A DNA stretch of 64,000 nt from positions 5,949-69,948 of the forward strand of contig DATFYM010000002.1 in NCBI GenBank assembly GCA_035315065.1, read 5' to 3'. The translations under genes and the position numbers were made by a program. The stretch is from Terriglobia bacterium (GTDB lineage: Bacteria > Acidobacteriota > Terriglobia > UBA7540). The notes below the pieces were generated by a model. It was not told the origin of the DNA. It did not search any database and worked only from the letters and a program-made list of their open reading frames with translations. The first letter of the stretch is position 1. Every line of letters starts with the position of its first letter. Of this stretch, positions 1,875 to 15,939 are shown piece by piece.

Positions 1875-4277
1875 ATGGCCGCGCAAGAAGCAGCACACGA
1901 CCTGTCGGTGGGCGGCCGGCGGGCTTCGAGGCCGCCTCGGGTGGCTCTCGCCCTCATCGGTTTCACGGCCATCATTGCGCAGATCGTGTTGATGCGAGAG
2001 CTGATCGTTGTCTTCTATGGCAACGAAATATCACTGGGCTTCATTCTAGCCAACTGGTTGCTCTGGACTGCCTTTGGCAGCGGCGCCTTGGGCCGCCTTG
2101 CCGGCAAAGTCCGCAACCCTCGCACGCTCATGGCCGGCTTGCAGGGTCTCATCGGGGTGGTACTTCCTGTCACCATTCTCGTCGTAAGAGCCAGCAAAAA
2201 CGCCTTTCAACCTACATCAGGCGAGATCCTTGGACCGGGCCCCATGTTTCTGACGTCCTTGGCGGTCCTCAGCGTGTTCTGCTCGGTCTCCGGGTTGCTT
2301 TTCGCCGCCGGCAGCCGCGCCTATGCTCGCGAGGCAGGGGCGTCGAGCATTGAGGCAACCAGTTCCGTGTACCTGCTGGAGGCGATAGGCTCCGGTGTGG
2401 GTGGCCTTCTGGCGAGCCTGGTTCTGATCCGCTACTTCGATGCTTTCGAAATAGCGTCGTTGGTCAGCATCCTGAACTTCGTGGCCGCGATTCTGATCGT
2501 CGAGGCGCCGCGGCTCCGACGCGCCCTCGTCGGAGGGCTTCTCGCAGTCTTCGCCTTTCTCGTTCTCCCCTTCCTCAACCGCCGACTCGAGAAGATGTCA
2601 CTGGCCTGGCTCTGGCGTGGCTTCCAGGTGGTGGCGATCCGCAACTCCATCTATGGCAATCTGGCCGTGGTTAAGACAGAAGGCACTCGCAGTCTCTTCG
2701 AAAATGGTCTGGTAGTCTTCAGCGTACCGAACCTCGAGTCGGCGGAGGAAGCTGTCCATTTCGCCCTGCTGCAACATCCCGCGCCGCGAAGCCTGCTGCT
2801 GATCGGCGGCGGCGTGAACGGAAGCCTCGCCCAGGCTCTCCAGCACTCGACCATCGAGCGCGTCGACTACGTTGAGCTTGATCCGGCGGTTCTGGATTTG
2901 GCCCGGCGCTACTTTCCGCAAGAATGGAGTCCGATCGGTTCCGATCCACGAGTGCACGCGCACCCCATCGACGGGCGCTTGTTTCTGAAGACGACGCGAG
3001 ACAGGTTCGACGTCATCATCCTCAACCTTCCCGATCCGGAGACTGCGCAGCTCAACCGATTCTATACCGACGAGTTCTTCCGGGAAGTGGCGGCCAAGCT
3101 GACCCCATCCGGAATCTTTTCGTTCCAGCTCCGAGCGGCGGAAGACTTTATCAGCCCCGAACTGGCGGACTTCCTGCGTTGCATCAAGAAGACGCTGAGC
3201 GAGGTCTTTCCGGAAGTGACCTTTATTCCCGGGGGTACCGTCCATTTCTTTGCCGCCCAGCGCCCCGCACTCCTCGCCACTGGTTCCCAGGACCTTTTGT
3301 CACGACTGCAAGCGCGGCATCTCCGCACCCGCTATGTTCGCGAGTATTACATTCCCTTCCGCATGATGCCGGACCGCATGGCCGATCTCGACCTGCAGAT
3401 CCGGCCACTCGCGGATACGCCCGTCAACCGCGATTTCACACCGGTAGCCTACTATTTCGATGTCGCCCTTTGGAGCCAGCGGTTCAATCACAGCTACCGT
3501 CAGGTGTTCCATTCCGCGGCGAGCGTGCGCTTCCGTTCCGTGATTGTCGCCGTGGGGTTGCTCCTGCTCGCGATCGCCGGAAGCCTTCGCTGGTTGGCGA
3601 AGAACGGTCAGCGATCCCGATCCAGTGCCGGCTTCTGCGTCGCCACCACCGGATTCACACTCATGGGCCTGGAGATGCTTTTGTTGCTGGGTTTCCAGGC
3701 CATCTACGGCTACGTTTACCACCAACTGGCCATCCTGATCGCTGCCTTCATGGTGGGAATGGCGGTGGGCAGTTGGTGGGCTAGGGGGGGGTCCAGTGGT
3801 GCCCCGAAGAGCGGCGCTAAGGGGCCGGACCCCGCTGGACCGAAACCGGGCGGCGCGGCAGGAAAACGGCAGGCAGTGTTGATCCTTGCCTGGCTGCAGA
3901 TCCTCGTCGCCGTCTCTCCGCTCCTGCTGTACGCATTGTTGGCCTGGTTCGCCGGGATCAGGACCGCGCTGGGACTGTGGGTGGTAAGCCAGATCGTGTT
4001 TCCCACCCTGGCCATCCTCTGCGGACTCCTGGGAGGATACCAGTTCCCGGTTGCCAGCCGGATGTTTTTCGTCAGCTCGCGGCAGGAGTCTAGCGGTCTA
4101 GGCTCGCTATATGCTCTGGACCTCCTGGGAGCCTGCCTCGGCGCGGTGCTCCTGAGCGTGTATTGGGTTCCCGTCTTCGGCTTCCTGAAGACCGCGTTGC
4201 TTAGTGCGGTGGTGAACCTGGCACCTGCCGGCCTTGCATATCTCTCGATGGGGGAACCCCCGGTTGATCGGGCATGA
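1875..4277 (+). CDS. Fused multi-TM (MFS-like) / spermidine synthase-like protein
   Basis: Hydrophobic helix blocks at both ends flank a SpeE-type core (LLLIGGGVNGS, VDYVELDPAV, FDVIILNLPDP, FYTDEFF). Confidence 0.75.
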   Translation: MAAQEAAHDLSVGGRRASRPPRVALALIGFTAIIAQIVLMRELIVVFYGNEISLGFILANWLLWTAFGSGALGRLAGKVRNPRTLMAGLQGLIGVVLPVTILVVRASKNAFQPTSGEILGPGPMFLTSLAVLSVFCSVSGLLFAAGSRAYAREAGASSIEATSSVYLLEAIGSGVGGLLASLVLIRYFDAFEIASLVSILNFVAAILIVEAPRLRRALVGGLLAVFAFLVLPFLNRRLEKMSLAWLWRGFQVVAIRNSIYGNLAVVKTEGTRSLFENGLVVFSVPNLESAEEAVHFALLQHPAPRSLLLIGGGVNGSLAQALQHSTIERVDYVELDPAVLDLARRYFPQEWSPIGSDPRVHAHPIDGRLFLKTTRDRFDVIILNLPDPETAQLNRFYTDEFFREVAAKLTPSGIFSFQLRAAEDFISPELADFLRCIKKTLSEVFPEVTFIPGGTVHFFAAQRPALLATGSQDLLSRLQARHLRTRYVREYYIPFRMMPDRMADLDLQIRPLADTPVNRDFTPVAYYFDVALWSQRFNHSYRQVFHSAASVRFRSVIVAVGLLLLAIAGSLRWLAKNGQRSRSSAGFCVATTGFTLMGLEMLLLLGFQAIYGYVYHQLAILIAAFMVGMAVGSWWARGGSSGAPKSGAKGPDPAGPKPGGAAGKRQAVLILAWLQILVAVSPLLLYALLAWFAGIRTALGLWVVSQIVFPTLAILCGLLGGYQFPVASRMFFVSSRQESSGLGSLYALDLLGACLGAVLLSVYWVPVFGFLKTALLSAVVNLAPAGLAYLSMGEPPVDRA

Positions 4278-5826
4278 CGGCATCGGGAGCGTGAGGCTGG
4301 CCGAAAACCAGGGCGGAGAACTGGAAAACATCCGTATCCTCGTTCTGCCAGCAGCGCCGCGGCAGTCCCGCCTTGACGCACGTCTGGTCGAGGAAGGTCG
4401 TCCGATCCCAGTGCTCCTCACTGGCGACCTGAGGCAAAAGCACCCCTTGCGATTCGCCCTCCCGCACGAGTAATCCATCATGGCCGACCTGGATTTGCTT
4501 CCAGTCCGTCACCCGGCGCAGCGGTGACAGGACCGAGATCTCGTATTCCAGCTCACCCAGTTCGGCAGCGGAGACCGGCGAAAAGCGCGGGTCTCGAACT
4601 GCCGCAAATGCCGCCACGTCGCGCACCGTCATACAGAGAGGTTTGAGGGGTGTGATGTAGCCGATACACCCGCGCAGCTCTCCTTTCTTCTTTAGCGTCA
4701 CGAAGGCGCCGCGGTCCCGCGTCAGAGCTTCGAGCCCCCCGGGCGAGCACTCATAGAGCTTGCCCTCGCGTACGGCGCTTTCCACGGACTTTTTCGCGAT
4801 CGTCATCAGCGCCTGCTCTTCCTTCACGTCCAGCCTGAACTCAGCGCCTTTCGAACCGCGTGACGCCGCCTCCTTGACGAACGCCTCCGCTCCGTAGCCG
4901 ACCACCCGACTCTTGTCGGGGGTGACGTCTCCCGAGTTGGCGTATTTGAGGATGATGGCGCGATTGGCTCCCAGGCGCTCGGCCGCGATCATCGCTGCCA
5001 CGATACCCCCTCCGCCGCAAGCCTCCCACACCCGCTGCTCGAAGTTGCCCGACATGTTGAAGTAGTCCCACTCTTCGATCGCTTTCAGCGTCTTGTGGTC
5101 GATGGTCTCCGCCTCGTCGTAGGGATGGTAATGCGACATATCGGAGCTGGCCACGATGAGGGTGTTAAAGTCGCCATCGGCGGTCGTCCCCTCCTTCTCG
5201 ATGAGCTTGGCCAGGCTCACGCCCAGCGCCCGCGAGGTGCCGTAGTCTTGTTCGCCCATCACCACCGGCACCAGCTTGAATTCGCCCAGCACGCGTTGCA
5301 GGAAGGGCAGTTCGTCCTCCAACGCATGTTCCCACCGGCCTTGAACCTCTCCATGTCCCTGGCCGGAGAACTTGATGAGCGGACTCATAGCCACCAGCTT
5401 GGCGGCAAAAGCCTTGTCGACCAGGACCTGGCCCAGCGGCGTAGCGTAGGCGTCGCCGTCATAGACTGAATTGAAGGGGAAGGCCTCATAGTGGCTGGGC
5501 GCTATCACCACCACGCGAGTGAACTTCCGTCCCCGCAGCAGAGCGTAGGAGTACGCCGCCACCGGACCGGAAAAGGGATAACCCGCGTGCGGCGCAACCA
5601 GCGCCACCAGCGGCCCCTTGAGTGCCGGCGCCGTTGCCTGAGCCAGAAAGTCGTCCACCATTTTGCCCAGTTCCTTCGGGTCGGCGGGATAGAAGCTCCC
5701 GGCAACTCCGGGCTGTCTTACCTTTGGTTTGTCAGCCGCTCTGGCATGGCCGCGCGGCAGCGAACAAGCCAACAACAGAAATAGGGAAGGAAAGTAGCGC
5801 CAATCTAGTTTCTTGGTCACGCTCAT
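4201..5826 (-). CDS. AmmeMemoRadiSam system protein B (Memo-like) fused to protein A (AMMECR1), with N-terminal signal-like leader
   Basis: Leader MSVTKKLDWRYFPSLFLLLACSLPRGHARA. Memo blocks PHAGYPFSGPVAAYSY, IAPSHY, SSDMSHY. AMMECR1 blocks GAFVTLKKKGELRGCIGYI, LLPQVA. Confidence 0.85.
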   Translation of the reverse strand: MSVTKKLDWRYFPSLFLLLACSLPRGHARAADKPKVRQPGVAGSFYPADPKELGKMVDDFLAQATAPALKGPLVALVAPHAGYPFSGPVAAYSYALLRGRKFTRVVVIAPSHYEAFPFNSVYDGDAYATPLGQVLVDKAFAAKLVAMSPLIKFSGQGHGEVQGRWEHALEDELPFLQRVLGEFKLVPVVMGEQDYGTSRALGVSLAKLIEKEGTTADGDFNTLIVASSDMSHYHPYDEAETIDHKTLKAIEEWDYFNMSGNFEQRVWEACGGGGIVAAMIAAERLGANRAIILKYANSGDVTPDKSRVVGYGAEAFVKEAASRGSKGAEFRLDVKEEQALMTIAKKSVESAVREGKLYECSPGGLEALTRDRGAFVTLKKKGELRGCIGYITPLKPLCMTVRDVAAFAAVRDPRFSPVSAAELGELEYEISVLSPLRRVTDWKQIQVGHDGLLVREGESQGVLLPQVASEEHWDRTTFLDQTCVKAGLPRRCWQNEDTDVFQFSALVFGQPHAPDAVMPDQPGVPPSRDMQGRQVPGSPPH

Positions 5827-5885
5827 AGTTCGTCCTCCCGAGAGTTCATGCTAAGGCGACGCTGAGGAAGGCGTGAAAAAATAAG

Positions 5886-5975
5886 AAGTTTCTCGCAAAG
5901 GCGCAAAGGCGCGCACAGTCGCAAAGAAGAAACCCTTTGCGTGCTTTGCGAACTTTGCGGCTTTGCGAGAAACTT
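5886..5975. repeat. Word-periodic palindrome, GCAAAG class
   Basis: AAGTTTCTCGCAAAGGCGCAAAG.. pairs with ..CTTTGCGGCTTTGCGAGAAACTT. A-run/T-run flanks. Lies between the radical SAM and Memo/AMMECR1 genes. Confidence 0.85.
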
Positions 5976-6148
5976 TTTGCTTTTCAACTTTCTTCACACG
6001 TTCTGAGGTCTCACCGTGCGTGAAGAGCCGCACCACCCATTTGTAAGCCAGGTCAGCCGGGTGTTTTTGCGCGCGTCCTATGGCCGAACGCTGTTCGGCC
6101 CTACGATTCTCCTTGCTGCCGACTGCCTTCTGCCTTCTGCCTACTTCT

Positions 6149-7414
6149 TCACGACCACAAGCCCGGAATCACCTGCTGGCAGTACTCGCACTTGCCTTTT
6201 CTCACGTGCATCTGGCCTACGGTGAACCCCTGGCGCTCCACCACGATACGGCGGCACTTGGGGCAGTAAGTGTTTTCCGCGGGGTGGCCGGGCACGTTAC
6301 CGATGTAAACGTAGTGGAGACCCTCGGCATCGGCGATGGCCTTGGCCCGTTCCAAGGTCTCCACCGGCGTCTCGGGAAGGTTGGTCAACAGATACTCGGG
6401 ATGGAAACGCGTGAAGTGCACGGGGACGTCAGGGCCCAAGTCGGACTTCACCCACCGTGCCATGGCCTTGAATTCCGCGTCTCCGTCGTTCAAGGTCGGG
6501 ATCACCAGGTACACGATCTCGGTCCACGTTCCCTGTTTCTTGATCGTCACCAGGGTGTCGAGCACGGGCTTCAACTCGCCGTTCACGACTTCTTTGTAGA
6601 ACTTCTCTGAAAATCCCTTCAGGTCTATCTTGATGGCGTCTACGGTCCGGCACCAGGTTTTCAGGGGATCTTGTTGGATGTACCCTCCGCTGATCACCAC
6701 GCTTTTGACGCCGACATTGTGTCCGGCCTCCGCCGCGTCCATCACATACTCGTAGAAGATCACGGGCTCGCTATAAGTGTAGGCGATCGACGGGCACTGG
6801 TACTGTTTCGCCAGCGACGCGAGATCGCGGGGCGGTACGTAGTTGCTCTTGACCTGCTCCGGCCGCACCTGGGAGATCTCCCAGTTCTGGCACATCTTGC
6901 AGTTGACGTTGCAGCCCGCCGTGGCGATGGAGAAGGCCATGGTACCGGGCTGGAAATGGAACAAGGGCTTCTTTTCAATGGGATCGACGTGCGCGGTCAC
7001 CACCCGTGAATGGACCAGGCTGTAGTATTTGCCCCCGCGGTTCTCCCGCGCGCCGCAGTAGCCCCGCTCGCGATCGTCGATCACGCACTCGCGCGGGCAA
7101 AGCTTGCACTTGGTCTTCTTGTACGCGAGCTTCTCGTAGAACTTCGCTTCGACGATGAATTGCGAATCGTCAGCCGCCGCCGTGCCCGTTGGGATGGGAC
7201 TTGTTGGGATGGGACTTGCCCCACCGCCGGAGGCAGGCCCGGAAAGAAGTCCTATCGGGATCGCGCTCGCCGACGCCAGCGCACAACCGGCCAGGCAGGG
7301 AAGCGCGGCGGCTTTCAGGAACGCCCTGCGATCAACCCCCGAGTTCTGATCCCAAGTCAGGAACCGGCGGTCGCCGATCTTCAACCCCTGCTTTTCGGTG
7401 GCTTCGTTCCTCAT
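6149..7414 (-). CDS. AmmeMemoRadiSam system radical SAM enzyme with twin-arginine/lipobox-type N-terminus
   Basis: CNVNCKMC (CxxxCxxC) cluster motif. N-terminus DRRAFLKAAALPCLAGCALASASA. Adjacent to the Memo/AMMECR1 gene. The ATG at 7414 lies inside a repeat element, and a TTG at 7384 is an alternative start. Confidence 0.85.
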   Translation of the reverse strand: MRNEATEKQGLKIGDRRFLTWDQNSGVDRRAFLKAAALPCLAGCALASASAIPIGLLSGPASGGGASPIPTSPIPTGTAAADDSQFIVEAKFYEKLAYKKTKCKLCPRECVIDDRERGYCGARENRGGKYYSLVHSRVVTAHVDPIEKKPLFHFQPGTMAFSIATAGCNVNCKMCQNWEISQVRPEQVKSNYVPPRDLASLAKQYQCPSIAYTYSEPVIFYEYVMDAAEAGHNVGVKSVVISGGYIQQDPLKTWCRTVDAIKIDLKGFSEKFYKEVVNGELKPVLDTLVTIKKQGTWTEIVYLVIPTLNDGDAEFKAMARWVKSDLGPDVPVHFTRFHPEYLLTNLPETPVETLERAKAIADAEGLHYVYIGNVPGHPAENTYCPKCRRIVVERQGFTVGQMHVRKGKCEYCQQVIPGLWS

Positions 7415-7500
7415 CTTTTCCTATCGACTTCCTTTATTTTCATACAAATCGGTGGCTTCGTTTTTCAAAAAGCTCTCAGCTTTCAGCTCTCAGCTGTCAG
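7396..7500 (+). repeat. Element A copy (two GGTGGCTTCGTT cores ~54 nt apart plus CAGC-word tail)
   Basis: CGGTGGCTTCGTTCC at 7396 and CAAATCGGTGGCTTCGTTTTTCAAAAAGCTCTCAGCTTTCAGC at 7445. Core 1 overlaps the first codons of the radical SAM ORF. Confidence 0.85.
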
Positions 7501-7810
7501 TTTTCAGTTCCAGCCCCTTTCCCGCTTGACTTTCCCTCGTTAATACCGCCCCTCCCGGGTTTTCCACCGTCCGTGCTCCCCGATCTGCGAGGCCGGTCAA
7601 TAGTAAGGACTGGTTGGCGATCCGAAAACGCCAAATGGGTTCGTATGGAAAACCCAACCCAAGATGTCCTTTGCTGCCAATACAGATTTGGGTTCGGTCC
7701 GATTTTTTCGCCTTTCTTTCCGGATTTCTCGATATATTTGCTGACGTCATGCATCCACTCTGTCCAGTACAACCTCGTTACTCTTATGGTAAAATAGGCG
7801 GAAAGAATAA

Positions 7811-7909
7811 GAGGTTTCTCGCAAAGCCGCAAAGTTTAGGAGGAGTCGCAAAGAAGCAACTTCTTCTCTTTGTTTGCATTGCGAACTTTGCGCCTTGGCG
7901 AGAAACTCC
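7811..7909. repeat. Word-periodic palindrome, GCAAAG class
   Basis: GAGGTTTCTCGCAAAGCCGCAAAG.. / ..CTTTGCGCCTTGGCGAGAAACTCC. Sister of the 5886 copy. Confidence 0.85.
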
Positions 7910-8044
7910 TTTGTTCTCCCCATTTCTTCACACCTTCTCAGTTTTCAGCCTTCAATCACCCAACCCCCACTTCTCACTCTCATTTCCAAGGTCAAGCCTG
8001 GGCGTTCTCTTTACCGAGAACTGATAACTGAGAACTGAAAACCC

Positions 8045-8150
8045 TCAAACGGTGGCTTCGTTCCTGACTCTTCCACAGGCCGATCCTTTGTTTTCAAGCA
8101 AATCGGTGGCTTCGTTTTTCAAAAGCTGTCGGCTTTCAGCCGTCAGTCAT
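8045..8150 (+). repeat. Element A copy
   Basis: AACGGTGGCTTCGTTCCTGACTCTTCCACAGGCCGATCCTTTGTTTTCAAGCAAATCGGTGGCTTCGTTTTTCAAAAGCTGTCGGCTTTCAGCC. About 30 nt past the ADOP stop. Confidence 0.9.
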
Positions 8151-8177
8151 CACCTTCCTCCCATTGATCGAGGGGCG

Positions 8178-10592
8178 CTATTCGGCACGCAGCGCCACCA
8201 TGGGATCCACGCAAGTGGCGCGGCGGGCTGGAATGAAAATGGCAAGCATGGCCACTGATCCGATCAGCAGCACGCTCACCAGAAAACTGAGCGGGCTCGG
8301 CCCGCCAGCCCCCGCCACGGCGGGAACCATCAGCGTGATCGCGTAAGCGGCCGTGAGTCCGACGGCCAAACCGGCCACCGCAATAACGGCCCCCTGGCGC
8401 AGGCAGAGCCAGAGTACATCCCGGCGTGGCGCTCCCAACGCCATGCGAATCCCTAGTTCCCGGCTGCGGGAACTGGCGGCATAGCTCGCGCTTCCGTAAA
8501 GTCCGACACAAGCGAGCACGACAGCTAGCGCACCCAACACGCCCAGGAGTACGCTGCCCGCGATTTCGACCTTGCGGGCAAGCCGCAGATGCTGTTTCAT
8601 CGTGCTCGCATTGACGAATTCGAGGTTCGGATGTGCCTTGTGCAACTCGCCGCGCACCAGACCCACCAGGGCTGAGGGCTCCCCGGCGGTTTCGACAACC
8701 AGCGTCATCTCGCCGAACGCTGAGCCGAGCGGTACAAATACACACTCCTGCGGCTGCTCATAAAAGCTCGAATACTTTCCATCCTCAACCACGGCCACAA
8801 CCTGCAAATTGTTGTAGCCTTCCGCTTGAATCCACCGCCCCACCACCTGGTTCGGCGGCGTGTTGGGCCACAACCGCCTCGCGGCGGTTTCATTCAGCGC
8901 GACAACCCTCGCGGCGTTCTTCGAAGCCGGCAGATCCTGCCGGACGAAGTCGCGCCCGGCCAGAACCCGAGTCCCCAGCGCGCCAAAGTAACCGGGGCCA
9001 ACGTAGATTTGGCCTACTGACCGCATGGAGTCGGGCGCGTTGCCTCCGGGTGAGGCAATCTTGAGAGAGAACATTCCGGTGTCGCCCAGCGGAACCGGAC
9101 CTGCATACGTGGCGCGTCGCGCACCGGGAAGGGCTCCAAGCTCTTCCGCGACTCCGCCCCAATTCGTGCGCTTCGAGAGGTCGAAGGAGACCACAAGAAC
9201 CAGCAGGAGTTTTCTGTCCACGTCCAAGCCGGGGTTCATTTTCAGCGCGCCGGAATAACTCAAGAGAAACCCGAAGGCGCCGGCAGCGAGAAGCTGCGCC
9301 ACCGCAATCTGGACGATGAGCAGGCCTTTCAGGACGGGCATGCGCCCTCGCGGTGGCGTAAATGCAGCGCTGGTAGCATTCAGGTCCGCGAGCACATTCC
9401 GCCGCGACGCCTGGATAGCAGGCCACGCCCCGAAAGCTATCCCCGTGGCCAGCGCGAGGAAGATGCTGTACAGCAGCACCCGCCGGTCGATGTGGATGCC
9501 GTAGTCCATCGGGATGATCAACGGACTCACGCGATTGAGCGCATAGATCAAGCAGGCAGCGAGCACCAGCCCGATCGCCACTCCGCCTATCGACAGCAAC
9601 ACGCTTTCGGTGAGGAACTGCCGAAAGATTCGCAGGCGGCTGGCGCCCAAGGCAGCGCGAATCGCGGTCTGTTGCCGCTGCCTGGCCGCGCGGGCGAGCA
9701 TCAGGTTGGCGATATTCGCACAGGCGATAAACAGCACCAGATTAACCAGCGACATCAAGATTGAACTGAAAAACAATCCCACCCGGGAGTTTTTCGTTGC
9801 TGCTTCCTCCAGATCGGCTTCGCAGTCATTGTCCGTGGCGGGATATTCCTGCCCGAGTTGCTGCGCAATCAGGTTCAACTCCGCCCGAGCTTGCGCGAAG
9901 GTGCTGCCCTGACGCAGGCGGCCCAGACTGTTCAAGTAACGCGCGTCACGCCGCATGTAATCCGCCTTCTCCAGGGCGGGCATCGAATCGAAGGTGATCC
10001 AAAGATCAACCGGGAACTGGAAGTCCAAGCCGCTAAACCCGGCGGGGGCGATTCCCACCACCGCGTACCCCTGGCCGTTGAGATAGATTGTGCTGCCGAC
10101 GAGGTCGGGCGCGCTGTTGAAGCTCCGCGTCCACAGGCGGTGGCTAATCACTATCTCCGGCACGCCGGCCTGATTCCCTCCCGTTGCTGGCGCGAAAAAC
10201 ACTCCAGCTCTGGGCTTTACGCCTAGCACGGAAAAGTAGTTCCGTGACACGTGGTTGACGGTGTGAACCTCGGCTTGGCCGTGAATTCTAATCAGACCGC
10301 CAGCGCGGTCCCACGCGATTAAGCCCGCTAGCGAACGCGAACGCCGCGCCAAGTCCGCGTAGTCCGGATAAGACATGCCTACTCCCTCATGGTGCCGGAC
10401 CATATAGACATAAACCAGTTCGTTCGGTCTCTCCACCGGCCATGGGTGCAACAGAACAGACGATACGACGCTGAACAAGGCGGAGTTTGGTCCCGTGCAG
10501 ATGGCCACCGATAACATGGCGGCGAGGGCAACAAAGGGATGCTGCCGAACCGTTCTCAGGGCGTGTCGGACATCCAAGAAGAGGCTACCCAT
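8178..10592 (-). CDS. ADOP/MacB-like ABC transporter permease (duplicated FtsX domains)
   Basis: 804 aa. Two FtsX-type modules (FIACANIANLMLARAARQRQQTAIRAALGASR..FLTES and RELGIRMALGAPRRD). C-terminus ARRATCVDPMVALRAE. Confidence 0.85.
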   Translation of the reverse strand: MGSLFLDVRHALRTVRQHPFVALAAMLSVAICTGPNSALFSVVSSVLLHPWPVERPNELVYVYMVRHHEGVGMSYPDYADLARRSRSLAGLIAWDRAGGLIRIHGQAEVHTVNHVSRNYFSVLGVKPRAGVFFAPATGGNQAGVPEIVISHRLWTRSFNSAPDLVGSTIYLNGQGYAVVGIAPAGFSGLDFQFPVDLWITFDSMPALEKADYMRRDARYLNSLGRLRQGSTFAQARAELNLIAQQLGQEYPATDNDCEADLEEAATKNSRVGLFFSSILMSLVNLVLFIACANIANLMLARAARQRQQTAIRAALGASRLRIFRQFLTESVLLSIGGVAIGLVLAACLIYALNRVSPLIIPMDYGIHIDRRVLLYSIFLALATGIAFGAWPAIQASRRNVLADLNATSAAFTPPRGRMPVLKGLLIVQIAVAQLLAAGAFGFLLSYSGALKMNPGLDVDRKLLLVLVVSFDLSKRTNWGGVAEELGALPGARRATYAGPVPLGDTGMFSLKIASPGGNAPDSMRSVGQIYVGPGYFGALGTRVLAGRDFVRQDLPASKNAARVVALNETAARRLWPNTPPNQVVGRWIQAEGYNNLQVVAVVEDGKYSSFYEQPQECVFVPLGSAFGEMTLVVETAGEPSALVGLVRGELHKAHPNLEFVNASTMKQHLRLARKVEIAGSVLLGVLGALAVVLACVGLYGSASYAASSRSRELGIRMALGAPRRDVLWLCLRQGAVIAVAGLAVGLTAAYAITLMVPAVAGAGGPSPLSFLVSVLLIGSVAMLAIFIPARRATCVDPMVALRAE

Positions 10593-10680
10593 GCTGCAAC
10601 CTCCCTAGCTGCTGGGCAACGACGCCGGGGCAGACTCGGTCTGATCTCCTCCGACATCATTTCAGTCAGGGACCACTTGC

Positions 10681-10760
10681 TTCAGACCTCCACCTTCTCA
10701 ATCAGATTAGGGTCATTCATCCCCAGCCGGTGCCGCGCATCGGCGGCGGTCGCGATGTAC
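10681..10760 (-). pseudogene. 3'-terminal remnant (~25 codons plus stop) of a DUF362-family gene
   Basis: Reverse strand reads YIATAADARHRLGMNDPNLIEKVEV*. The intact DUF362 gene at 16480 ends YIATAADARHRLGTNQPSQIEKVEV*. About 85% nt identity over ~80 nt, with no upstream ORF. Confidence 0.65.
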
Positions 10761-10964
10761 GATACTAAGACCCTTGTTTTTCATAAGCGTCGTGGCTTTC
10801 CGAGCCGCGCGGTTTCTGCCATCATAGCGTCTTCAATAGCACCGTGGCTCAAGTTGCCCCAAGAGGATTCTTCGCGTCACAATGCCAAAATCAATTCGTC
10901 AAGATCCCGGTGCGTCGCAGCCTGCTGCCCACTGCCGACTCCCGACCGGGCGACTGCCTTCCTC

Positions 10965-11050
10965 CTTACGGTGGCTTTGCTCTTCACTTCTCTCGATCGA
11001 CTTCCTTTGTTTTCAACGAAATCGGTGGCTTCGATTTTTCAAACTGCGAA
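10965..11050 (+). repeat. Element A copy (diverged core 1)
   Basis: TTACGGTGGCTTTGCTCTTCAC...CCTTTGTTTTCAACGAAATCGGTGGCTTCGATTTTTCAAAC. Confidence 0.8.
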
Positions 11051-11715
11051 CCGATCCCGCTAGCGCCGGGTTGCAACCGCAAGTCCTAGGTTCTGCATCA
11101 CCGCCGCCACCAGGAACCCGCCGAGGAGTATCCCGCCGGCAACTGCATACAGCCGGGCTGCCCGGGTTTGCGCCAGCCCCGCGCCGCCAATCGCGCCCGC
11201 GACGGTGAACTCGGCCAATTCACATGCCGCCCAAGCTGCCAACATGTCCCCGCCCAAGGGGAACATCGAGAAAAGCCCAACATTTCCAGCTACTGCGAAC
11301 ACAAGTCCAAACCCGGCGCCGAACCTGGCGCCGGATGCCGCACCACGGATGTCCAGGTGCCGCTCCAACCACAGCAGCAACGCCGTCAACAGCAGGAAAG
11401 ACCCGTAACCGAAAGGGATTCGCCGGAACATCAGCGCCGGCGGCAAGAACACCGGCCCGGGGTTGACGTAGTACCGCGACAGAAGACCGGCGTTGAACAG
11501 GAAGTCGACGCCGAGGAATGCGATCCACATCGCACCGGCGATGGCGACCATGCGTCCGATGGTCAGCCGCAGTTCAGTGTCATGTGCTGTCGTCGGGACG
11601 TTCATGCACTTCCCTCTGGTTTAAGAAGCTCTCAGCCGTCAGCCCTCAGCTTCCCGCCTTTTGCCTTTCTTTTCTCTTCCTGTCCGCCTGCTACTCGCGA
11701 CCGCTCAACGCCGGT
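11040..11715. repeat. Segmental duplication, copy 1 (181-aa gene plus flanks)
   Basis: Aligns base-for-base with 15240-15850 at offset 4200 (~93% identity), then with indels through the word-rich upstream flank. Confidence 0.9.
11060..11605 (-). CDS. Hypothetical polytopic membrane protein (181 aa), paralog 1
   Basis: 4-5 hydrophobic helices. About 93% identical to the ORF at 15260..15805. No family recognised. Confidence 0.6.
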   Translation of the reverse strand: MNVPTTAHDTELRLTIGRMVAIAGAMWIAFLGVDFLFNAGLLSRYYVNPGPVFLPPALMFRRIPFGYGSFLLLTALLLWLERHLDIRGAASGARFGAGFGLVFAVAGNVGLFSMFPLGGDMLAAWAACELAEFTVAGAIGGAGLAQTRAARLYAVAGGILLGGFLVAAVMQNLGLAVATRR

Positions 11716-11808
11716 TCCCAAAGATGTTCCGGCCCGCAGATGTCAGATATTTTCAGCTTGACTAGCGTCGGCCCTTAGCCCCCCACCTTTCCGTTTTTTC
11801 CTCTGTGA

Positions 11809-12065
11809 CAGGGCGCGACCGTTCGCATCAGATTGCACCTTGACATGAACCGCACGACTTGGCCCATTTTCCGAAAAGCCGCGCCATTCGCCTTCCGCCT
11901 TGGTGAACCTCGGAAATGGGTTCGTGTTGGGTTCGGTCCCGGGACACGATCTTGTGTTTTCAATAAGTCGGTGGCTTCGGTCCTGAAAAAATGATTACGT
12001 TTGATGCTCGACCAAGTGCTGGCCAGAGCAAATCGTCGTGCATGCTGATAATCACATATATAATG
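11809..12065 (+). repeat. Element B copy 1 (~260 nt)
   Basis: CAGGGCGCGACCGTTCGCATCAGATTG...AAATGGGTTCGTGTTGGGTTCGGTCCC...TTTTCAATAAGTCGGTGGCTTCGGTCCTGAAAAA...TGGCCAGAGCAAATCGTCG. Confidence 0.85.
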
Positions 12066-12164
12066 TAATATACCAACATGACAAATCCTGGTCCGGTCTC
12101 TAAACTCAGGTGGTTTATTGACGCACATTATGCTACCCCGAGAGCGATATGCCCGTTTGCGAAT

Positions 12165-12215
12165 CAACCAGCAAATCGGTGGATTCGTTTTTCGAAAAAC
12201 TCCCAGCTTTCAGCC
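12165..12215 (+). repeat. Element A half copy (core 2 only)
   Basis: CAGCAAATCGGTGGATTCGTTTTTCGAAAAACTCCCAGCTTTCAGCC. Confidence 0.75.
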
Positions 12216-12309
12216 GCCGCCCTATCAGCGCCTGCCCATTTGCCCTTTGCCCTTTGCCCTTTGCCATTTGCCTTCCTGCCCGCTGCCTACTGCCGACCGC
12301 TTTCCGCCC

Positions 12310-12425
12310 TCTAACGGTGGCTTCGTTCCTGACTTTTCCACCGCCCGATCCTTCGTTTTCAAGCAAATCGGTGGCTTCGTTTTTGAAAAGCTATCAGCTT
12401 TCAGCCGTCAGCCATCAGCTTCCTG
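12310..12425 (+). repeat. Element A copy
   Basis: TAACGGTGGCTTCGTTCCTGACTTTTCCACCGCCCGATCCTTCGTTTTCAAGCAAATCGGTGGCTTCGTTTTTGAAAAGCTATCAGCTTTCAGCCGTCAGCC. Confidence 0.9.
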
Positions 12426-12478
12426 CCATTTGCCTTTTGCCATTTGCCTTTTGCCTTTCTTTTCTCTTTCCTGTCGGC

Positions 12479-12737
12479 CAGGGCGCGGCCGTTCGCATCA
12501 GATTGAACCTGGACACGAACCACACGACTTGGCCCATTTTCCGAAAAGTCGCACCATTTGCCCTCCGCCTGGGTGAACTTCGGAAATGGGTTCGTAATGG
12601 GTTCGGTCCCGGGGCACGATCGTTTGTTTTCAATAAGTCGATGGCTTCGGTCCTGAAAAAAACGATTACGTTCTGCGCTCCACCAAGAACTGGCCAGAGC
12701 GAATCGTCGGGCATCTGGATGATCAAATATATGATTC
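12479..12737 (+). repeat. Element B copy 2 (~85-90% identical, offset ~670 nt, 1-nt indel)
   Basis: CAGGGCGCGGCCGTTCGCATCAGATTG...AAATGGGTTCGTAATGGGTTCGGTCCC...TTTTCAATAAGTCGATGGCTTCGGTCCTGAAAAAA. Confidence 0.85.
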
Positions 12738-13051
12738 AAGATAACTACCCTATCGTAGCTCCGCATCCGGCCGGTAAACTCCAGTTGTTTAAGTTATTTA
12801 TCAATAACTCTCATGATACCCTTCAACTAAACCGTCTGCCCGTGTATCATTCTCTGGCACAAGCTGCCGGATTCTCTCTCTACGGAGGTTTTTCCTGCCC
12901 ATCACCATCACTGCCAACTCTCAGTTGTCGGCCATCACCTTCTAGTCTTCCCGTGCCGCGCTACTGTCGGCGGGCCCTTTGCGTACCTACCGACTGCCTT
13001 CTGCCGACTGCCGACTGCTTCTTGACGACCCTCAACTCCTCTTGTCAACGG

Positions 13052-14014
13052 TTATTGCGACTTCCCTTTCGCATGTCCTTCTTCACGATAACGGAGAGCT
13101 TCAGCCGCGTCGCTTAACGGGTAGCGCCTGTCGATGACGGGTACAACTTTTCCGGCTTCAAGAAGACTTTTCAGAAAAACCAAATCCTTCGTGTTTATCT
13201 TCGCAATAAAGAAACGCATCTTCTTGCTCCCAATCCGTGATAGGAATGGTCCCAGTAACATAGCTTGAAAAACTCGACCCAAACCACCTCCGACCATGAC
13301 AAAAATTCCGTCCTGACTCAGCGCACGCCGGTAATCGAAAATCGAATGATGGGCGTTCACACCGAGAATGAGATCGTAACGCTGGCCACTTTGCGTGAAA
13401 TCTTCTCGAGTGTAATCAATGACATGGTCTGCGCCAAGCGATCGCGCCGTGTCCACATTCCTCGTACTGCACACGGCAGTGACCTCAGCCCCGAACGATT
13501 TGGCAATCTGGACCGCAAACGTACCCACACCACCAGACGCGCCATCAACCAGAACCTTTTGGCCTCGCTGAATCCGTCCCTTGTCACGAAGACCCTGGAG
13601 GGCGGTGATTGCCGCCACGGGTACAGCTGCGGCATCCTCGAACGATAGGTTGGCCGGCTTCAGCGCCAGTTTATCTTCAACCGCACACACATACTCGGCA
13701 AACCCTCCCACACCTTTTCCCCCGAACACCTCGTCGCCGGGCTGAAACTGTTTTACGTGTCTGCCAACCGCTTCAACTCGCCCCGCGATATCACAGCCTA
13801 TGACCTTGTATTTTGGTTTGAGCAGCCCCCCGATCATCGGGAGGAAGAACAACGGTCCTCTCATGGAGAAACTGTCAAGCGGATTTACAGATGCCGCGTA
13901 GATTTTTATCAGGACCTCGTTGTCCGCGGGGGTAGGTACTGCAATCTCGCTTAGCTGCAACACATCCGGCGGTCCGTATTGCGTGTGTACGATCGCTTTC
14001 ATAAAGTGCTTCAA
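13052..14014 (-). CDS. NAD(P)-dependent zinc-type alcohol dehydrogenase/quinone oxidoreductase family (MDR)
   Basis: MKAIVHTQYGPPDVLQL start region and nucleotide-binding block VDGASGGVGTFAVQIAKSFGAEV. The ATG at 14002 is an alternative start. Confidence 0.85.
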   Translation of the reverse strand: MKHFMKAIVHTQYGPPDVLQLSEIAVPTPADNEVLIKIYAASVNPLDSFSMRGPLFFLPMIGGLLKPKYKVIGCDIAGRVEAVGRHVKQFQPGDEVFGGKGVGGFAEYVCAVEDKLALKPANLSFEDAAAVPVAAITALQGLRDKGRIQRGQKVLVDGASGGVGTFAVQIAKSFGAEVTAVCSTRNVDTARSLGADHVIDYTREDFTQSGQRYDLILGVNAHHSIFDYRRALSQDGIFVMVGGGLGRVFQAMLLGPFLSRIGSKKMRFFIAKINTKDLVFLKSLLEAGKVVPVIDRRYPLSDAAEALRYREEGHAKGKSQ

Positions 14015-14127
14015 GAGTTCTCAGCTCTCGGCCGTCAGCCATCAGCTTCCCGCGCTGCCTTTTGACTTCCGGCGACTCCGTTCTGCCGACCATCGCCTGG
14101 AATGGCCCTCCGACCGTGATCCGTCCC

Positions 14128-14215
14128 CCAAATGGGTTCGTAATGGGTTCGGTCCCAAGTATCGCCTTTCGTTTTCAATAACTCAGTGGCTTCGGTCCTT
14201 CAAAATCGACTGATT
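14128..14215 (+). repeat. Element B partial copy
   Basis: CAAATGGGTTCGTAATGGGTTCGGTCCCAAG...TTTTCAATAACTCAGTGGCTTCGGTCCTTCAAAATCG. Confidence 0.75.
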
Positions 14216-14284
14216 CGCTTCCTTCTTGTCACAGCCTTGACACTGCCGAATGCCTTCTGCCTGCCGTCGGCTGCTTTCCGCGTT

Positions 14285-14400
14285 CTAACGGTGGCTTCGT
14301 TCCTGATTTCTCCAGAGCCCGATCCTTTGTTTTCTATCAAATCGGTGGCCTCTTTCTTCAAAAAGTTCCCGGCTTTCAGTTGTCAGCCATCGGTTTCCGA
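14285..14400 (+). repeat. Element A copy
   Basis: TAACGGTGGCTTCGTTCCTGATTTCTCCAGAGCCCGATCCTTTGTTTTCTATCAAATCGGTGGCCTCTTTCTTCAAAAAG. Just past the DUF4386 gene stop. Confidence 0.85.
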
Positions 14401-14409
14401 TGATTCCGT

Positions 14410-15093
14410 TCAAGGTTGCTTTGGTTCTGAAGCACTATTCATGCCTTTGACCAGAATCCACACCCCGATTGTAAATTCAAAGGGGACGTAGGGAAGGTAC
14501 AGGAAAAATGAAACTTGATGGCCAAACACAGCAAACAGTGTCCCTACCAGGCAAGGGAAAACTGCTATCAGACCCCAGAGAGACAGCGCACGGGGAACAA
14601 TTCTCGATTTGTCGAGCAGGTAATAAAAAAGGATCGCACCCAAACAAAAAGCCAACATACTCAGCGTAGCTCCAACAAAATCCATGGATTCCAACGCCAG
14701 GTTTCCTATCGTCTGCAAATAGGCAGGGTGTCCTGCGGTTACATATTCCTGACTTGTGCGAAGGAGAGAGAAAGAGGCTATTTTGCTGGTAGCAACCAGC
14801 GCCGCTTCTAAGACATAGAACCCCATGGCAACAAGAGCTACGGTTTCGTTCTGATTCCTCAGGGTTATAAAAAGAACGGCCCCTAAAAAGATGACGCCAA
14901 AGGCGGTGATCATATCAACCAAAATGTTTGCTCTCATCAGCCAGGCATTATTGGCAACCTTGATCATACTTTCACTTATATTTCCAGTCGGCGTCAATGC
15001 CAGTTTCAGAATCAGTCCACTGATCAAAGATGTAATCGCCTGAAGAAGAAATGCACCTCCCAAAACTCTTGAAGTACTGTTGACTGAATCCAT
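14410..15093 (-). CDS. DUF4386-like membrane protein
   Basis: About 6 TM helices. C-terminal pattern SRIVPRALSLWGLIAV..LPYVPFEFTIGVWILVKG resembles DUF4386 members (recalled, not searched). Confidence 0.6.
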   Translation of the reverse strand: MDSVNSTSRVLGGAFLLQAITSLISGLILKLALTPTGNISESMIKVANNAWLMRANILVDMITAFGVIFLGAVLFITLRNQNETVALVAMGFYVLEAALVATSKIASFSLLRTSQEYVTAGHPAYLQTIGNLALESMDFVGATLSMLAFCLGAILFYYLLDKSRIVPRALSLWGLIAVFPCLVGTLFAVFGHQVSFFLYLPYVPFEFTIGVWILVKGMNSASEPKQP

Positions 15094-15164
15094 TTCTTAT
15101 TCCCTGTTGTTTATTTCGATGACGCTGTCGATTGACTTCCGCCTACTGACGACTGCTTTCCGCC

Positions 15165-15935: not shown

Positions 15936-15939
15936 CCGC

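What the first reader, a model, noticed from the sequence alone, without database searches (positions are those of the whole stretch)
4201..7414. AmmeMemoRadiSam triad that looks exported: Sec-type leader on the Memo-AMMECR1 fusion, twin-arginine plus lipobox leader on the radical SAM enzyme
Seen: the 541-aa ORF fuses Memo-like (system protein B) to AMMECR1 (protein A) and opens with MSVTKKLDWRYFPSLFLLLACSLPRGHARA. The adjacent 421-aa radical SAM enzyme (CNVNCKMC) opens with ..DRRAFLKAAALPCLAGCALASASA. That is an RRxFLK Tat motif, a hydrophobic core, an LAGC lipobox and an ASA site. About 45 aa of Pro/Gly/Ser/Thr linker then precede the catalytic domain, and no internal Met exists before the Cys motif. 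Established: the substrate and role of this three-component system are unknown. Radical SAM chemistry needs SAM and a low-potential reductant, both normally cytoplasmic. Inference: either a periplasm-facing, membrane-tethered radical SAM system (very unusual) or leaders acting as anchors. A multi-TM spermidine-synthase-like (SAM-fold) protein converges on the locus and overlaps it by 77 nt.
Basis: partly seen in the sequence, partly recalled or inferred. Interest (0 to 1): 0.7.

Follow-up and report, generated by a model that had tools for sequence, protein, structure and literature searches.

The report
Radical SAM enzyme system built for export
An enzyme set that uses radical chemistry normally confined to the cell interior carries conserved export signals and sits among exported electron-transfer proteins, so it probably works outside the inner membrane, where its cofactor SAM is not known to exist.

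Summary
Both ORFs exist as described. The leaders cannot be avoided by a downstream start codon.

- **Conservation.** About 110 of 120 acidobacterial orthologues of each protein keep the leader. Roughly a quarter of all AmmeMemoRadiSam radical SAM clusters carry RRxFL leaders with divergent hydrophobic cores.
- **Fusions.** Other family members fuse the radical SAM domain to modules that face, or feed electrons to, the outside of the membrane. These are FMN_bind, DsbD, NosR/NapH-like and CBM domains.
- **Wider cluster.** The two genes belong to a conserved seven-gene cluster. It also holds two twin-arginine DUF362 proteins, a NapH/NapG-like membrane polyferredoxin and a DUF6599 lipoprotein.
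- **Fourth partner.** The "spermidine-synthase-like" neighbour is a 14-helix membrane protein. Its degenerate SAM-fold domain is predicted to face the periplasm. It recurs beside leader-bearing enzymes in other phyla (13/27 loci versus 4/53 for leaderless ones).
- **Lipobox.** It is specific to this clade.

Best reading is an extracytoplasmic variant of the system (confidence about 0.65). The sources of SAM and of low-potential electrons are unresolved. Nothing has been tested experimentally.

The parts
6149..7414 (-). AmmeMemoRadiSam radical SAM enzyme, 421 aa, with an N-terminal leader
   Evidence: TIGR04337 scores 378.7 bits against a cut-off of 220. The protein is 100% identical to P0001, annotated as a Terriglobia MAG protein. 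The closest solved fold is PFL-activating enzyme 3cb8, TM-score 0.74 normalised to the target.
7262..7414 (-). Twin-arginine-type leader, residues 1-51: DRRAFLK at 28-34, hydrophobic core with C40 and C44, LAGC lipobox at 41-44, ASA at 49-51
   Evidence: TIGR01409 scores 17.7 bits against a cut-off of 16.7. RRxFL is kept in 108/120 close homologues. AlphaFold2 gives pLDDT below 50 for residues 1-27 and from residue 38 onward, with a lone helix at 29-48. No alternative start lies between codons 11 and 111.
7154..7261 (-). Pro/Gly/Ser/Thr/Ala-rich linker, residues 52-87
   Evidence: Read from the sequence. Length and sequence vary among homologues. pLDDT is below 50 for residues 38-90.
4201..5826 (-). 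Memo-AMMECR1 fusion (system proteins B and A), 541 aa
   Evidence: TIGR04336 scores 248 bits and TIGR04335 scores 177.9 bits. PDB sequence relatives are MEMO1 3bcz and AMMECR1 PH0010 1vaj.
5737..5826 (-). Sec-type signal peptide, residues 1-30: K/R-rich n-region, FPSLFLLLACSL core, ARA|A cleavage-like site
   Evidence: A GGAGGA Shine-Dalgarno sequence lies 6 nt upstream of the ATG. All 112/112 homologues with an extension have a 9-residue Kyte-Doolittle hydropathy (KD) window of at least 2.0 (median 2.99). Of these, 104 have a net positive n-region.
1875..4277 (+). Membrane protein with 14 predicted helices (7+7) and a central spermidine-synthase-like (SAM-fold) domain at residues 237-552, predicted to face the periplasm
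   Evidence: PF01564 scores 90 bits, but all SpeE equivalogs fall below their cut-offs. A 51-sequence alignment places the K/R-rich loops 62-85, 210-216, 573-581 and 636-671 on the side opposite the domain. The Asp of GGGDG and the first catalytic Asp are missing. It is a neighbour in 55/80 acidobacterial loci and in L083, L084, L085 and L087.
16480..17541 (-). DUF362 protein with a twin-arginine leader (SNRREFLRTC). In relatives it is the first gene of the operon, directly upstream of the radical SAM gene
   Evidence: PF04015 scores 83 bits. tblastn hits lie directly upstream of the radical SAM gene in about 75 of 80 loci (79 of 80 loci have a hit). 71/74 orthologues have an RRxFL-type motif.
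17819..18907 (+). Second DUF362 protein with a twin-arginine-like leader (GRRHALLKLARLGGLGGLG)
   Evidence: PF04015 scores 184.6 bits. 32/33 orthologues have the motif. It lies within the cluster in 33-38 of 80 loci.
19203..20933 (+). NapH-like membrane ferredoxin fused to a NapG-like polyferredoxin through an internal RRKLL helix
   Evidence: Fer4_5 scores 69 bits. NapG (PRK09476) matches at 91 bits over residues 347-559 and NapH (PRK09477) at 85 bits over residues 11-191, both below their cut-offs. It lies within the cluster in about 20 of 80 loci.
20982..21530 (+). DUF6599 small protein with a lipoprotein-like N-terminus
   Evidence: PF20244 scores 61.9 bits. It follows the NapH/G-like gene in relatives, and L075 has a canonical MLTAC lipobox.
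7415..16479 (.). Insertion of about 9 kb that splits DUF362a from the radical SAM gene in this genome only. It holds a MacB-type permease, an alcohol dehydrogenase, a DUF4386 protein, two copies of a 181-aa membrane protein gene and many REP-like repeats
   Evidence: L001, the closest relative, has DUF362a about 170 nt upstream of the radical SAM gene. An 80-nt copy of the DUF362a 3' end lies at 10682-10761. Repeat families D1-D10 are listed.

Best explanation
The locus encodes an envelope-located variant of the AmmeMemoRadiSam system.

**Shown**
- Domain identities of all proteins.
- Unavoidable, conserved leaders on both core proteins.
- The conserved seven-gene cluster.
- Cross-phylum recurrence of the partners.
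- Fusions of the same radical SAM domain to extracytoplasmic or transmembrane electron-transfer modules.

**Inferred**
- The radical SAM enzyme folds and receives its iron-sulfur clusters in the cytoplasm.
- It is exported by the Tat pathway. It then stays at the outer face of the inner membrane, either lipid-anchored at Cys44 or released at ASA51, on a flexible linker of about 36-44 aa.
- The Memo-AMMECR1 fusion is exported unfolded by Sec.
- Both act there together with a 14-helix membrane protein whose degenerate SAM-fold domain faces the periplasm. The likely substrate is membrane- or envelope-bound.
- Electrons are fed from the membrane through the NapH/NapG-like polyferredoxin and the Tat-exported DUF362 proteins.

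**Unknown**
- The chemical reaction and the substrate.
- How SAM reaches the enzyme. It could be carried out bound to the folded enzyme and used catalytically or once. Alternatively it could be supplied by the 14-helix partner.
For: **1. The leaders are translated.**
- For the radical SAM gene there is no usable start between codons 11 and 111, and a stop lies 3 codons upstream.
- The fusion's ATG has a strong Shine-Dalgarno sequence.

**2. The Tat motif is conserved with variable cores.**
- 108/120 close homologues keep it.
- 29-36 of 150 clusters (at 50% identity) have it.
- 111/120 best hits of a profile built from distant members have it. These come from Brocadiales, Desulfobacteraceae, Syntrophobacteraceae and Zixibacteria.

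**3. The partner's leaders match.**
- In the metagenome sample, 20/21 Memo-AMMECR1 fusions carry a hydrophobic leader.
- Separate Memo and AMMECR1 genes carry none.

**4. Fusion proteins point the same way.**
- The tested fusions score 362-386 bits on TIGR04337.
- In P0261 and P0291 the radical SAM domain follows FMN_bind, which carries an SGAT flavinylation motif, with no helix in between.
- In P0253, P0257, P0262, P0264 and P0272 it follows NosR/NapH-like or DsbD modules.
- In P0249 and P0247 it follows a CBM_11 domain or a beta-propeller behind a single N-terminal helix.
- FMN_bind domains flavinylated by ApbE are extracytosolic (PMC8238504).

**5. The cluster is conserved.**
- It contains three twin-arginine proteins and a NapG-like domain.

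**6. Neighbours track the leader.**
- A SpdSyn-like neighbour occurs in 13/27 loci with a leader-bearing enzyme against 4/53 with a leaderless one (p=6e-5).
- DUF362 occurs in 7/27 against 0/53 (p=3e-4).

**7. The leader is not part of the fold.**
- It is modelled as a lone helix plus a disordered linker.
Against: - No SAM pool and no reductant of about -450 mV is known outside the cytoplasm (established knowledge). A NapGH-type module works at quinol potential.
- No dedicated signal-peptide predictor and no experiment was available.
- A few family members carry Sec-type rather than Tat-type leaders on the iron-sulfur enzyme (P0445, L089, L100, L105, L152). This is hard to reconcile with export of a folded cluster protein.
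- Six metagenome loci pair a leaderless radical SAM enzyme with a leader-bearing fusion (L095, L099, L109, L112, L113, L134).
- The leader cores are unusually Cys-rich, with 1.1-2.1 Cys in the 25 residues after RR. This hints at an additional or different role.
- TIGR01409 reaches E<=0.01 in only 13/73 close homologues.
- The operon is interrupted in this genome.
Confidence: 0.65

Rival explanations
1. The N-terminal helices are uncleaved membrane anchors. They hold both catalytic domains at the cytoplasmic face of the membrane, next to the 14-helix partner. SAM and ferredoxin or flavodoxin are then available as usual.
For: - Radical SAM chemistry needs SAM and a low-potential reductant.
- Some loci have a leaderless radical SAM enzyme beside an anchored fusion.
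- Some members have plain hydrophobic N-termini.
- The conserved Cys pair in the helix would be more plausible in a retained segment.
Against: - Positive charges, including RR, precede the helix. This predicts N-terminus in and C-terminus out.
- The hydrophobic stretch is short (9-17 residues) and rich in Ala, Gly and Pro. It is followed by AxA-type sites in 112/113 and 107/111 leaders.
- FMN_bind, CBM and NapG-like contexts are extracytoplasmic.
- The partner's SAM-fold domain is itself predicted to lie outside.
Confidence: 0.15
2. The enzyme works in the cytoplasm first and is exported afterwards. It might perform its SAM-dependent step on itself, on a bound cofactor or on a hitchhiking partner while held by Tat proofreading. 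It then leaves as a spent or single-use carrier.
For: - Tat exports folded, cofactor-loaded proteins and complexes (established knowledge).
- The closest fold is an activase, PFL-AE, which uses one SAM per activation.
- This removes the SAM-supply problem.
Against: - The fusion partner uses Sec, so it cannot meet the enzyme before export.
- Dedicated electron-input modules fused to or encoded next to the enzyme argue for continued turnover outside.
Confidence: 0.12
3. The RR segment is a vestigial or chaperone-binding Tat-like peptide, as in NarG. The enzyme stays cytoplasmic and only the fusion is exported.
For: Remnant Tat motifs exist on cytoplasmic-facing enzymes (established knowledge, NarG/NarJ). 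TIGR01409 scores are marginal.
Against: - A complete n-h-c architecture with cleavage-type sites is kept across phyla.
- Some lineages replace it with Sec-type signal peptides, not with nothing.
- The neighbours DUF362a and DUF362b carry the same kind of leader.
- Enzyme and partner would end up in different compartments.
Confidence: 0.06
4. Gene-calling artefact: translation starts downstream and the leaders are not made.
For: None found.
Against: For the radical SAM gene, the only in-frame starts are codons 1, 11 and 111. Starting at 111 would delete invariant residues E89-C110. For the fusion, starts beyond codon 19 delete the conserved VAGSFYP, and a Shine-Dalgarno sequence precedes codon 1.
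Confidence: 0.01

Closest known systems
Canonical AmmeMemoRadiSam system (TIGR04335, TIGR04336, TIGR04337)
   Same: All three domains match above their curated cut-offs and are adjacent. The radical SAM motif and invariant residues are kept.
   Different: - Canonical members are leaderless. 56 of 150 clusters are plain enzymes of about 330-350 aa.
- In the few such loci sampled (L124, L166, L151), separate Memo and AMMECR1 genes lack leaders.
- Here Memo and AMMECR1 are fused, both proteins carry export leaders, and four or five further envelope proteins are linked.
Pyruvate formate-lyase activating enzyme and other glycyl-radical activases
   Same: It is the best structural match (3cb8, TM-score 0.74 normalised to the target). 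Weak sequence matches also exist (TIGR02493, 48 bits).
   Different: - The score is far below the family cut-off (231.75).
- The enzyme has extra N-terminal CxxCxxC...C and C-terminal CxxC...CxxC motifs.
- No glycyl-radical enzyme is encoded nearby.
- PFL-AE is cytoplasmic.
NapGH quinol dehydrogenase and NosR
   Same: The 576-aa neighbour combines a NapH-like membrane part carrying Fer4_5 motifs with a NapG-like polyferredoxin. Family members fuse the radical SAM domain to NosR-like FMN_bind plus Fer4_5 modules.
   Different: - All matches are below the equivalog cut-offs.
- NapH and NapG are fused into one chain.
- No nitrate or nitrous oxide reductase is present.
- Quinol potential is too high for a radical SAM cluster.
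ApbE-flavinylated extracytosolic electron-transfer systems (Meheust et al. 2021, PMC8238504)
   Same: FMN_bind domains with [ST]GA[TS] motifs, NapH-like modules and DsbD-like modules are attached to this radical SAM family.
   Different: Full-text term searches of that paper and its 2024 follow-up returned no hit for 'radical', 'Memo', 'AMMECR' or the Pfam accession PF04055, which was queried in the 2021 paper only. The window itself has no FMN_bind domain or ApbE in the cluster.
Tat-exported iron-sulfur proteins such as hydrogenase small subunits and NapG
   Same: An RRxFLK leader sits on a cluster-containing passenger. Basic residues follow the hydrophobic core in DUF362b.
   Different: No radical SAM enzyme is among described Tat substrates in the literature searched.
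Spermidine synthase (PABS family)
   Same: PF01564 matches. The VE[LI]DP, DGR and DP motifs are kept.
   Different: - The Asp of GGGDG and the first catalytic Asp are absent.
- The domain is inserted between two 7-helix bundles and predicted to face the periplasm.
- All SpeE equivalog scores fall below their cut-offs.

Membership tests
AmmeMemoRadiSam system | Radical SAM enzyme matching TIGR04337 above its cut-off, with a CX3CX2C motif | tested here: met
   378.7 bits against 220. CNVNCKMC lies at residues 168-175.
AmmeMemoRadiSam system | Memo-like protein B (TIGR04336) and AMMECR1-like protein A (TIGR04335) encoded next to the enzyme | tested here: met
   248 bits against 26, and 177.9 bits against 99. 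The two are fused in one ORF 323 nt downstream of the radical SAM gene.
AmmeMemoRadiSam system | Soluble, leaderless proteins as covered by the family models | tested here: not met
   The models start at residue 91 of the enzyme and residue 37 of the fusion. Leaders of 87 and 36 aa precede them.
Tat (twin-arginine) substrates | S/T-R-R-x-F-L-K motif, then a moderately hydrophobic core, then a short c-region | tested here: met
   DRRAFLK is followed by AAALPCLAGCALASASA. TIGR01409 scores 17.7 bits against 16.7. The longest uncharged run is 36 residues.
Tat (twin-arginine) substrates | The motif is conserved in orthologues while the core varies | tested here: met
   Found in 108/120 close homologues, 111/120 distant profile hits and 29-36/150 clusters.
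Tat (twin-arginine) substrates | Export depends on TatABC and on the two arginines | not testable with these tools
   Requires reporter fusions or fractionation.
Bacterial lipoproteins | Lipobox [LVI][ASTVI][GAS]C at the end of the signal peptide | tested here: inconclusive
   LAGC lies at residues 41-44. The pattern occurs in 82/113 acidobacterial leaders but only 2/111 distant ones. The Cys may instead belong to a family-wide Cys pair.
Sec signal peptides (Memo-AMMECR1 fusion) | Positive n-region, hydrophobic core, small-x-small cleavage site | tested here: met
   The leader is MSVTKKLDWRY / FPSLFLLLACSL / PRGHARA|A. Its best 9-residue Kyte-Doolittle hydropathy (KD) window is 2.81. All 112/112 homologues have a KD window of at least 2.0, and 106 have a small-x-small site. 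SignalP was not available.
Spermidine synthase (SpeE) | Scores above the equivalog cut-off, with the GGGDG Asp and catalytic Asp residues | tested here: not met
   TIGR00417 scores 98.7 bits against 249.55.
Glycyl-radical enzyme activases | Scores above the TIGR02493 or TIGR02494 cut-offs, with a glycyl-radical enzyme partner | tested here: not met
   48.2 bits against 231.75, and 44 bits against 174.35. No partner was found in the cluster. Only the fold is similar.
NapH / NapG | Scores above the equivalog cut-offs, in a nap operon context | tested here: not met
   85.4 bits against 234, and 91.3 bits against 269. No napA was seen among the cluster genes examined.

The most novel reading that the evidence does not exclude
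Radical SAM chemistry is carried out outside the cytoplasm by a self-sufficient envelope machine with three parts.
- A Tat-exported radical SAM enzyme works with a Sec-exported Memo-AMMECR1 partner.
- The 14-helix protein, with its periplasm-facing degenerate SAM-fold domain, delivers or holds SAM across the membrane.
- NapH/NapG-like, DUF362, FMN_bind or DsbD modules deliver electrons.

This would be the first extracytoplasmic radical SAM system. It would also imply SAM export.
Probability: 0.3. Interest if true: 0.95.

Novelty: new variant of a known kind. Interest (0 to 1): 0.8.

Why it matters
- **A rule would be broken.** Radical SAM enzymes are treated as strictly cytoplasmic because they need SAM, iron-sulfur assembly and low-potential electrons. 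A widespread, multi-phylum subfamily built for export would overturn that assumption. It would also imply unknown routes for SAM and strong reductants across the membrane.
- **It narrows an old question.** The function of the Memo/AMMECR1/radical SAM triad is unknown, and both Memo and AMMECR1 have human disease homologues. The envelope variant points to a membrane- or envelope-bound substrate. It also supplies new obligatory partners to test: the 14-helix SAM-fold protein, DUF362 and the NapH/G-like polyferredoxin.

Tried and rejected
**Literature**
- Searches for AmmeMemoRadiSam, for Memo plus AMMECR1 plus radical SAM, for periplasmic or exported radical SAM, and for flavinylation plus radical SAM found no functional or localisation study.
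- Burroughs et al. 2019 (JBC 294:10211), cited in PMC7159879 for 'Memo-Ammecr1 systems', is not held. It may already mention membrane-associated contexts.

**Structure**
- No PDB sequence relative exists for the enzyme or for DUF362a.
- Structure prediction for the 14-helix partner and for DUF362 was not attempted. Their homologues came from loci, which the tool does not accept.

**Methods that fell short**
- TIGR01409 as a family-wide counter is too weak, reaching only 13/73 close homologues. A motif count was used instead.
- Single-sequence helix counting on NosR-like and DsbD-like fusions gave ambiguous helix numbers. Only the single-helix FMN_bind, CBM and propeller fusions were used as topology evidence.

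**Rejected idea**
- A downstream start codon is ruled out.

**Uninformative loci**
- Contexts L082, L086 and L088 showed the leader-bearing enzyme alone.

Full report
**1. What is in the window**

ORF 6149..7414(-) encodes a 421-aa protein. It matches the AmmeMemoRadiSam radical SAM model TIGR04337 at 378.7 bits (cut-off 220) over residues 91-420. ORF 4201..5826(-) encodes a 541-aa fusion. The Memo-like part (TIGR04336, residues 37-314) is followed by AMMECR1 (TIGR04335, residues 339-508). PDB sequence relatives are MEMO1 and archaeal AMMECR1 proteins.

The radical SAM protein is identical to a protein annotated in a Terriglobia MAG. All 80 closest genomic loci are acidobacterial MAGs from peat and soil.

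The enzyme's N-terminus reads ..VDRRAFLKAAALPCLAGCALASASA. A P/G/S/T/A-rich stretch follows, to about residue 87. The twin-arginine model TIGR01409 passes its cut-off (17.7 against 16.7).

The fusion opens with MSVTKKLDWRYFPSLFLLLACSLPRGHARA|ADKPK. A GGAGGA Shine-Dalgarno sequence lies 6 nt before its ATG.

Neither leader can be skipped.
- In the radical SAM gene the only in-frame starts are codons 1, 11 and 111. Codon 111 lies inside the invariant Cys-rich N-terminal part of the domain. A stop lies 3 codons upstream.
- In the fusion, any start after codon 19 removes the conserved VAGSFYP.

The 77-nt convergent overlap with ORF 1875..4277(+) is real. The Pro-rich tail that causes it is conserved.

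**2. The leaders are conserved features**

Among the 120 closest homologues of the enzyme (70-84% identity), 108 keep RRxFL followed by a hydrophobic core. The linker varies in length and sequence.

Among fusion homologues, all 112 with an N-terminal extension have a strongly hydrophobic 9-residue window (median Kyte-Doolittle 2.99). Of these, 104 have a positive n-region and 106 have a small-x-small site. Leader sequences are otherwise poorly conserved, as expected of signal peptides.

An AlphaFold2 model built with 73 homologues shows a lone helix at residues 29-48. Residues 1-27 and 38-90 have pLDDT below 50. The catalytic core is folded, and its best PDB match is PFL-activating enzyme. The leader is therefore not part of the enzyme fold.

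**3. The phenomenon is family-wide**

A full HMMER scan of 1.84 billion cluster representatives returned 150 best clusters (37-62% identity). They divide as follows.
- 56 are plain leaderless enzymes.
- 29 by a strict motif rule, about 36 by eye, carry [ST]RRxF[LI] leaders with quite different hydrophobic cores.
- A few carry Sec-type or transmembrane N-termini.
- 15 have long N-terminal fusions.

A profile built from 29 distant leader-bearing members retrieved 120 proteins. Of these, 111 have RR or KR leaders. Named sources include Brocadiales, Desulfobacteraceae, Syntrophobacteraceae and Zixibacteria.

The N-terminal fusions are telling. All those tested score 362-386 bits on TIGR04337.
- P0261 and P0291 have one N-terminal helix, then an FMN_bind domain with an SGAT flavinylation motif, then the radical SAM domain. 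No helix lies in between.
- P0253 and P0257 add a NosR/NapH-like Fer4_5 membrane module.
- P0262 and P0264 have a DsbD-type module. P0272 has both module types.
- P0249 and P0247 place a CBM_11 domain or a beta-propeller behind a single N-terminal helix.

FMN_bind domains flavinylated by ApbE are extracytosolic electron-transfer modules (PMC8238504). That paper and its follow-up do not mention radical SAM enzymes.

**4. The two genes belong to a larger cluster**

tblastn of window ORFs against the 80 acidobacterial loci shows a recurrent order:

NapH/G-like polyferredoxin, DUF6599 protein, DUF362b / DUF362a, radical SAM, Memo-AMMECR1, then the convergent 14-helix spermidine-synthase-like protein.

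- DUF362a hits 79 of 80 loci and lies directly upstream of the enzyme in about 75 of them.
- Its orthologues keep an RRxFL leader in 71/74 cases, and DUF362b in 32/33.
- The 576-aa polyferredoxin has a NapH-like membrane part with two Fer4_5 motifs. An internal RRKLL helix links it to a NapG-like four-cluster domain.

All these genes are present in the window: 16480..17541(-), 17819..18907(+), 19203..20933(+) and 20982..21530(+). Here, however, DUF362a is separated from the radical SAM gene by about 9 kb of inserted, repeat-rich DNA. The closest relative, L001, lacks this insertion.

**5. The spermidine-synthase-like neighbour is a partner**

It is present in 55/80 acidobacterial loci, many of which are truncated. 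It also lies next to leader-bearing enzymes in other lineages.
- A Syntrophobacteraceae MAG (L083).
- A Calescamantes MAG (L084, which also has a DsbD gene).
- Two further lineages (L085 and L087), where no Memo or AMMECR1 gene lies within 8 kb.

A mixed metagenome sample of 80 family loci gives the following counts.

| Neighbour | Leader-bearing enzyme | Leaderless enzyme | Fisher p |
|---|---|---|---|
| SpdSyn-like protein | 13/27 | 4/53 | 6e-5 |
| DUF362 | 7/27 | 0/53 | 3e-4 |

A 51-sequence alignment gives seven helices, a 316-residue domain, then seven more helices. The four K/R-rich loops (62-85, 210-216, 573-581, 636-671) all fall on one side. Summed K+R is about 24 on that side against about 2 on the other. 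The positive-inside rule therefore places the domain in the periplasm.

The domain keeps nucleotide-binding motifs (VE[LI]DP, DGR). It lacks the Asp of GGGDG and the first catalytic Asp, so it is not a true aminopropyltransferase.

**6. How it most likely works**

Shown:
- Domain identities.
- Unavoidable, conserved leaders.
- Cluster conservation.
- Cross-phylum association.
- The fusion architectures.

Inferred:
- The iron-sulfur enzyme is exported folded by Tat.
- The fusion is exported by Sec.
- Both act at the outer face of the inner membrane with the 14-helix protein.
- Electrons arrive through the NapH/G-like protein and DUF362 proteins. In other lineages they arrive through FMN_bind, NosR-like or DsbD modules.

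The split between Tat for the cluster protein and Sec for the other is what genuine export predicts.

The substrate is unknown. The membrane partner and envelope location point to a membrane- or envelope-bound molecule. As I recall its abstract, Burroughs et al. 2019 linked Memo contexts to isoprenoid modification. I could not read that paper.

The SAM source is the main gap. There are two possibilities.
- SAM is exported bound to the folded enzyme and is used catalytically or once.
- SAM is delivered by the 14-helix partner.

**7. Evidence that does not fit**

- A minority of family members carry Sec-type leaders on the iron-sulfur enzyme.
- Six loci pair a leaderless enzyme with a leader-bearing fusion.
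- The leader cores carry 1.1-2.1 Cys per 25 residues, often as a pair.
- The canonical lipobox is clade-specific, at 82/113 against 2/111.
- Quinol-level electrons cannot reduce a radical SAM cluster without energy input (established knowledge).

**8. Novelty and verdict**

No paper in the searchable library describes an exported radical SAM enzyme or a function for the prokaryotic system.

I file this as a new variant of a known kind: a true AmmeMemoRadiSam member by all sequence criteria, but with an envelope architecture and new partners.

| Reading | Confidence |
|---|---|
| Extracytoplasmic system | about 0.65 |
| Cytoplasmic-face anchoring | about 0.15 |
| Act first, then export | about 0.12 |
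| Vestigial Tat-like motif | about 0.06 |

Interest is 0.8.

Noticed in passing
window 7415-16479: About 9 kb of inserted DNA splits the otherwise contiguous DUF362a to radical SAM operon. It holds a MacB/FtsX permease (8178-10592), an alcohol dehydrogenase (13052-14014), a DUF4386 protein (14410-15093) and two copies of a 181-aa membrane protein gene (11060-11605 and 15260-15805, about 90% identical). An 80-nt copy of the DUF362a 3' end lies at 10682-10761.
   Followed up: partly
window 5935-5985, 7396-7526, 7868-7918, 8042-8172, 11951-12660, 14166-14404, 15162-16394: There are many copies of short REP/MITE-like repeat families, such as CAAATCGGTGGCTTCGTTTTTCAAAAA and AGCTxTCAGC runs. They lie in intergenic regions, including the unusually long 323-nt spacer between the radical SAM and fusion genes. 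They also generate spurious long ORFs, for example 12149-13117.
   Followed up: partly
P0001-P0120, P0391-P0510 (leaders); window 7283-7297: The hydrophobic cores of the twin-arginine leaders of this enzyme family are Cys-rich. They often hold a pair spaced 2-4 residues apart (LPCLAGC, FCGTSFC, ACLGC, ACVCG). DUF362a leaders keep one Cys (FLRxC). This is unusual for signal peptides and unexplained.
   Followed up: partly
L089, L100, L105, L106, L152; P0445 (L084): Some family members carry classical Sec-type signal peptides, not Tat-type, on the iron-sulfur radical SAM enzyme. This is difficult to reconcile with cluster insertion before export.
   Followed up: no
L095, L099, L109, L112, L113, L134: These operons have a leaderless radical SAM enzyme, then a Memo-AMMECR1 fusion with an N-terminal helix. 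In L099 and L134 a very large spermidine-synthase-like membrane protein follows (1147 and 1304 aa), and L112 has a contig-truncated hit. This may be a third architecture of the system.
   Followed up: partly
P0301, P0305, P0312, P0315, P0325, P0340, P0374 and others: These are proteins of 900-1150 aa with the AmmeMemoRadiSam-type radical SAM domain at the N-terminus and long C-terminal extensions. Their N-termini have a WWH-type motif. The domain content of the extensions was not examined.
   Followed up: no
L065 and L066; L012: L065 (labelled Verrucomicrobiia) and L066 (labelled Acidiferrales) show identical gene coordinates and near-identical percent identities for the whole cluster. L012 is labelled Limnocylindrales but carries the acidobacterial-type cluster. 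This probably reflects the same or near-identical contigs binned into different MAGs.
   Followed up: no
L053, L054, L059, L071, L072, L080: In several Bryobacteraceae loci the NapH/G-like polyferredoxin and the DUF6599 protein appear as one ORF of about 680-700 aa. This supports a functional link between the two.
   Followed up: no
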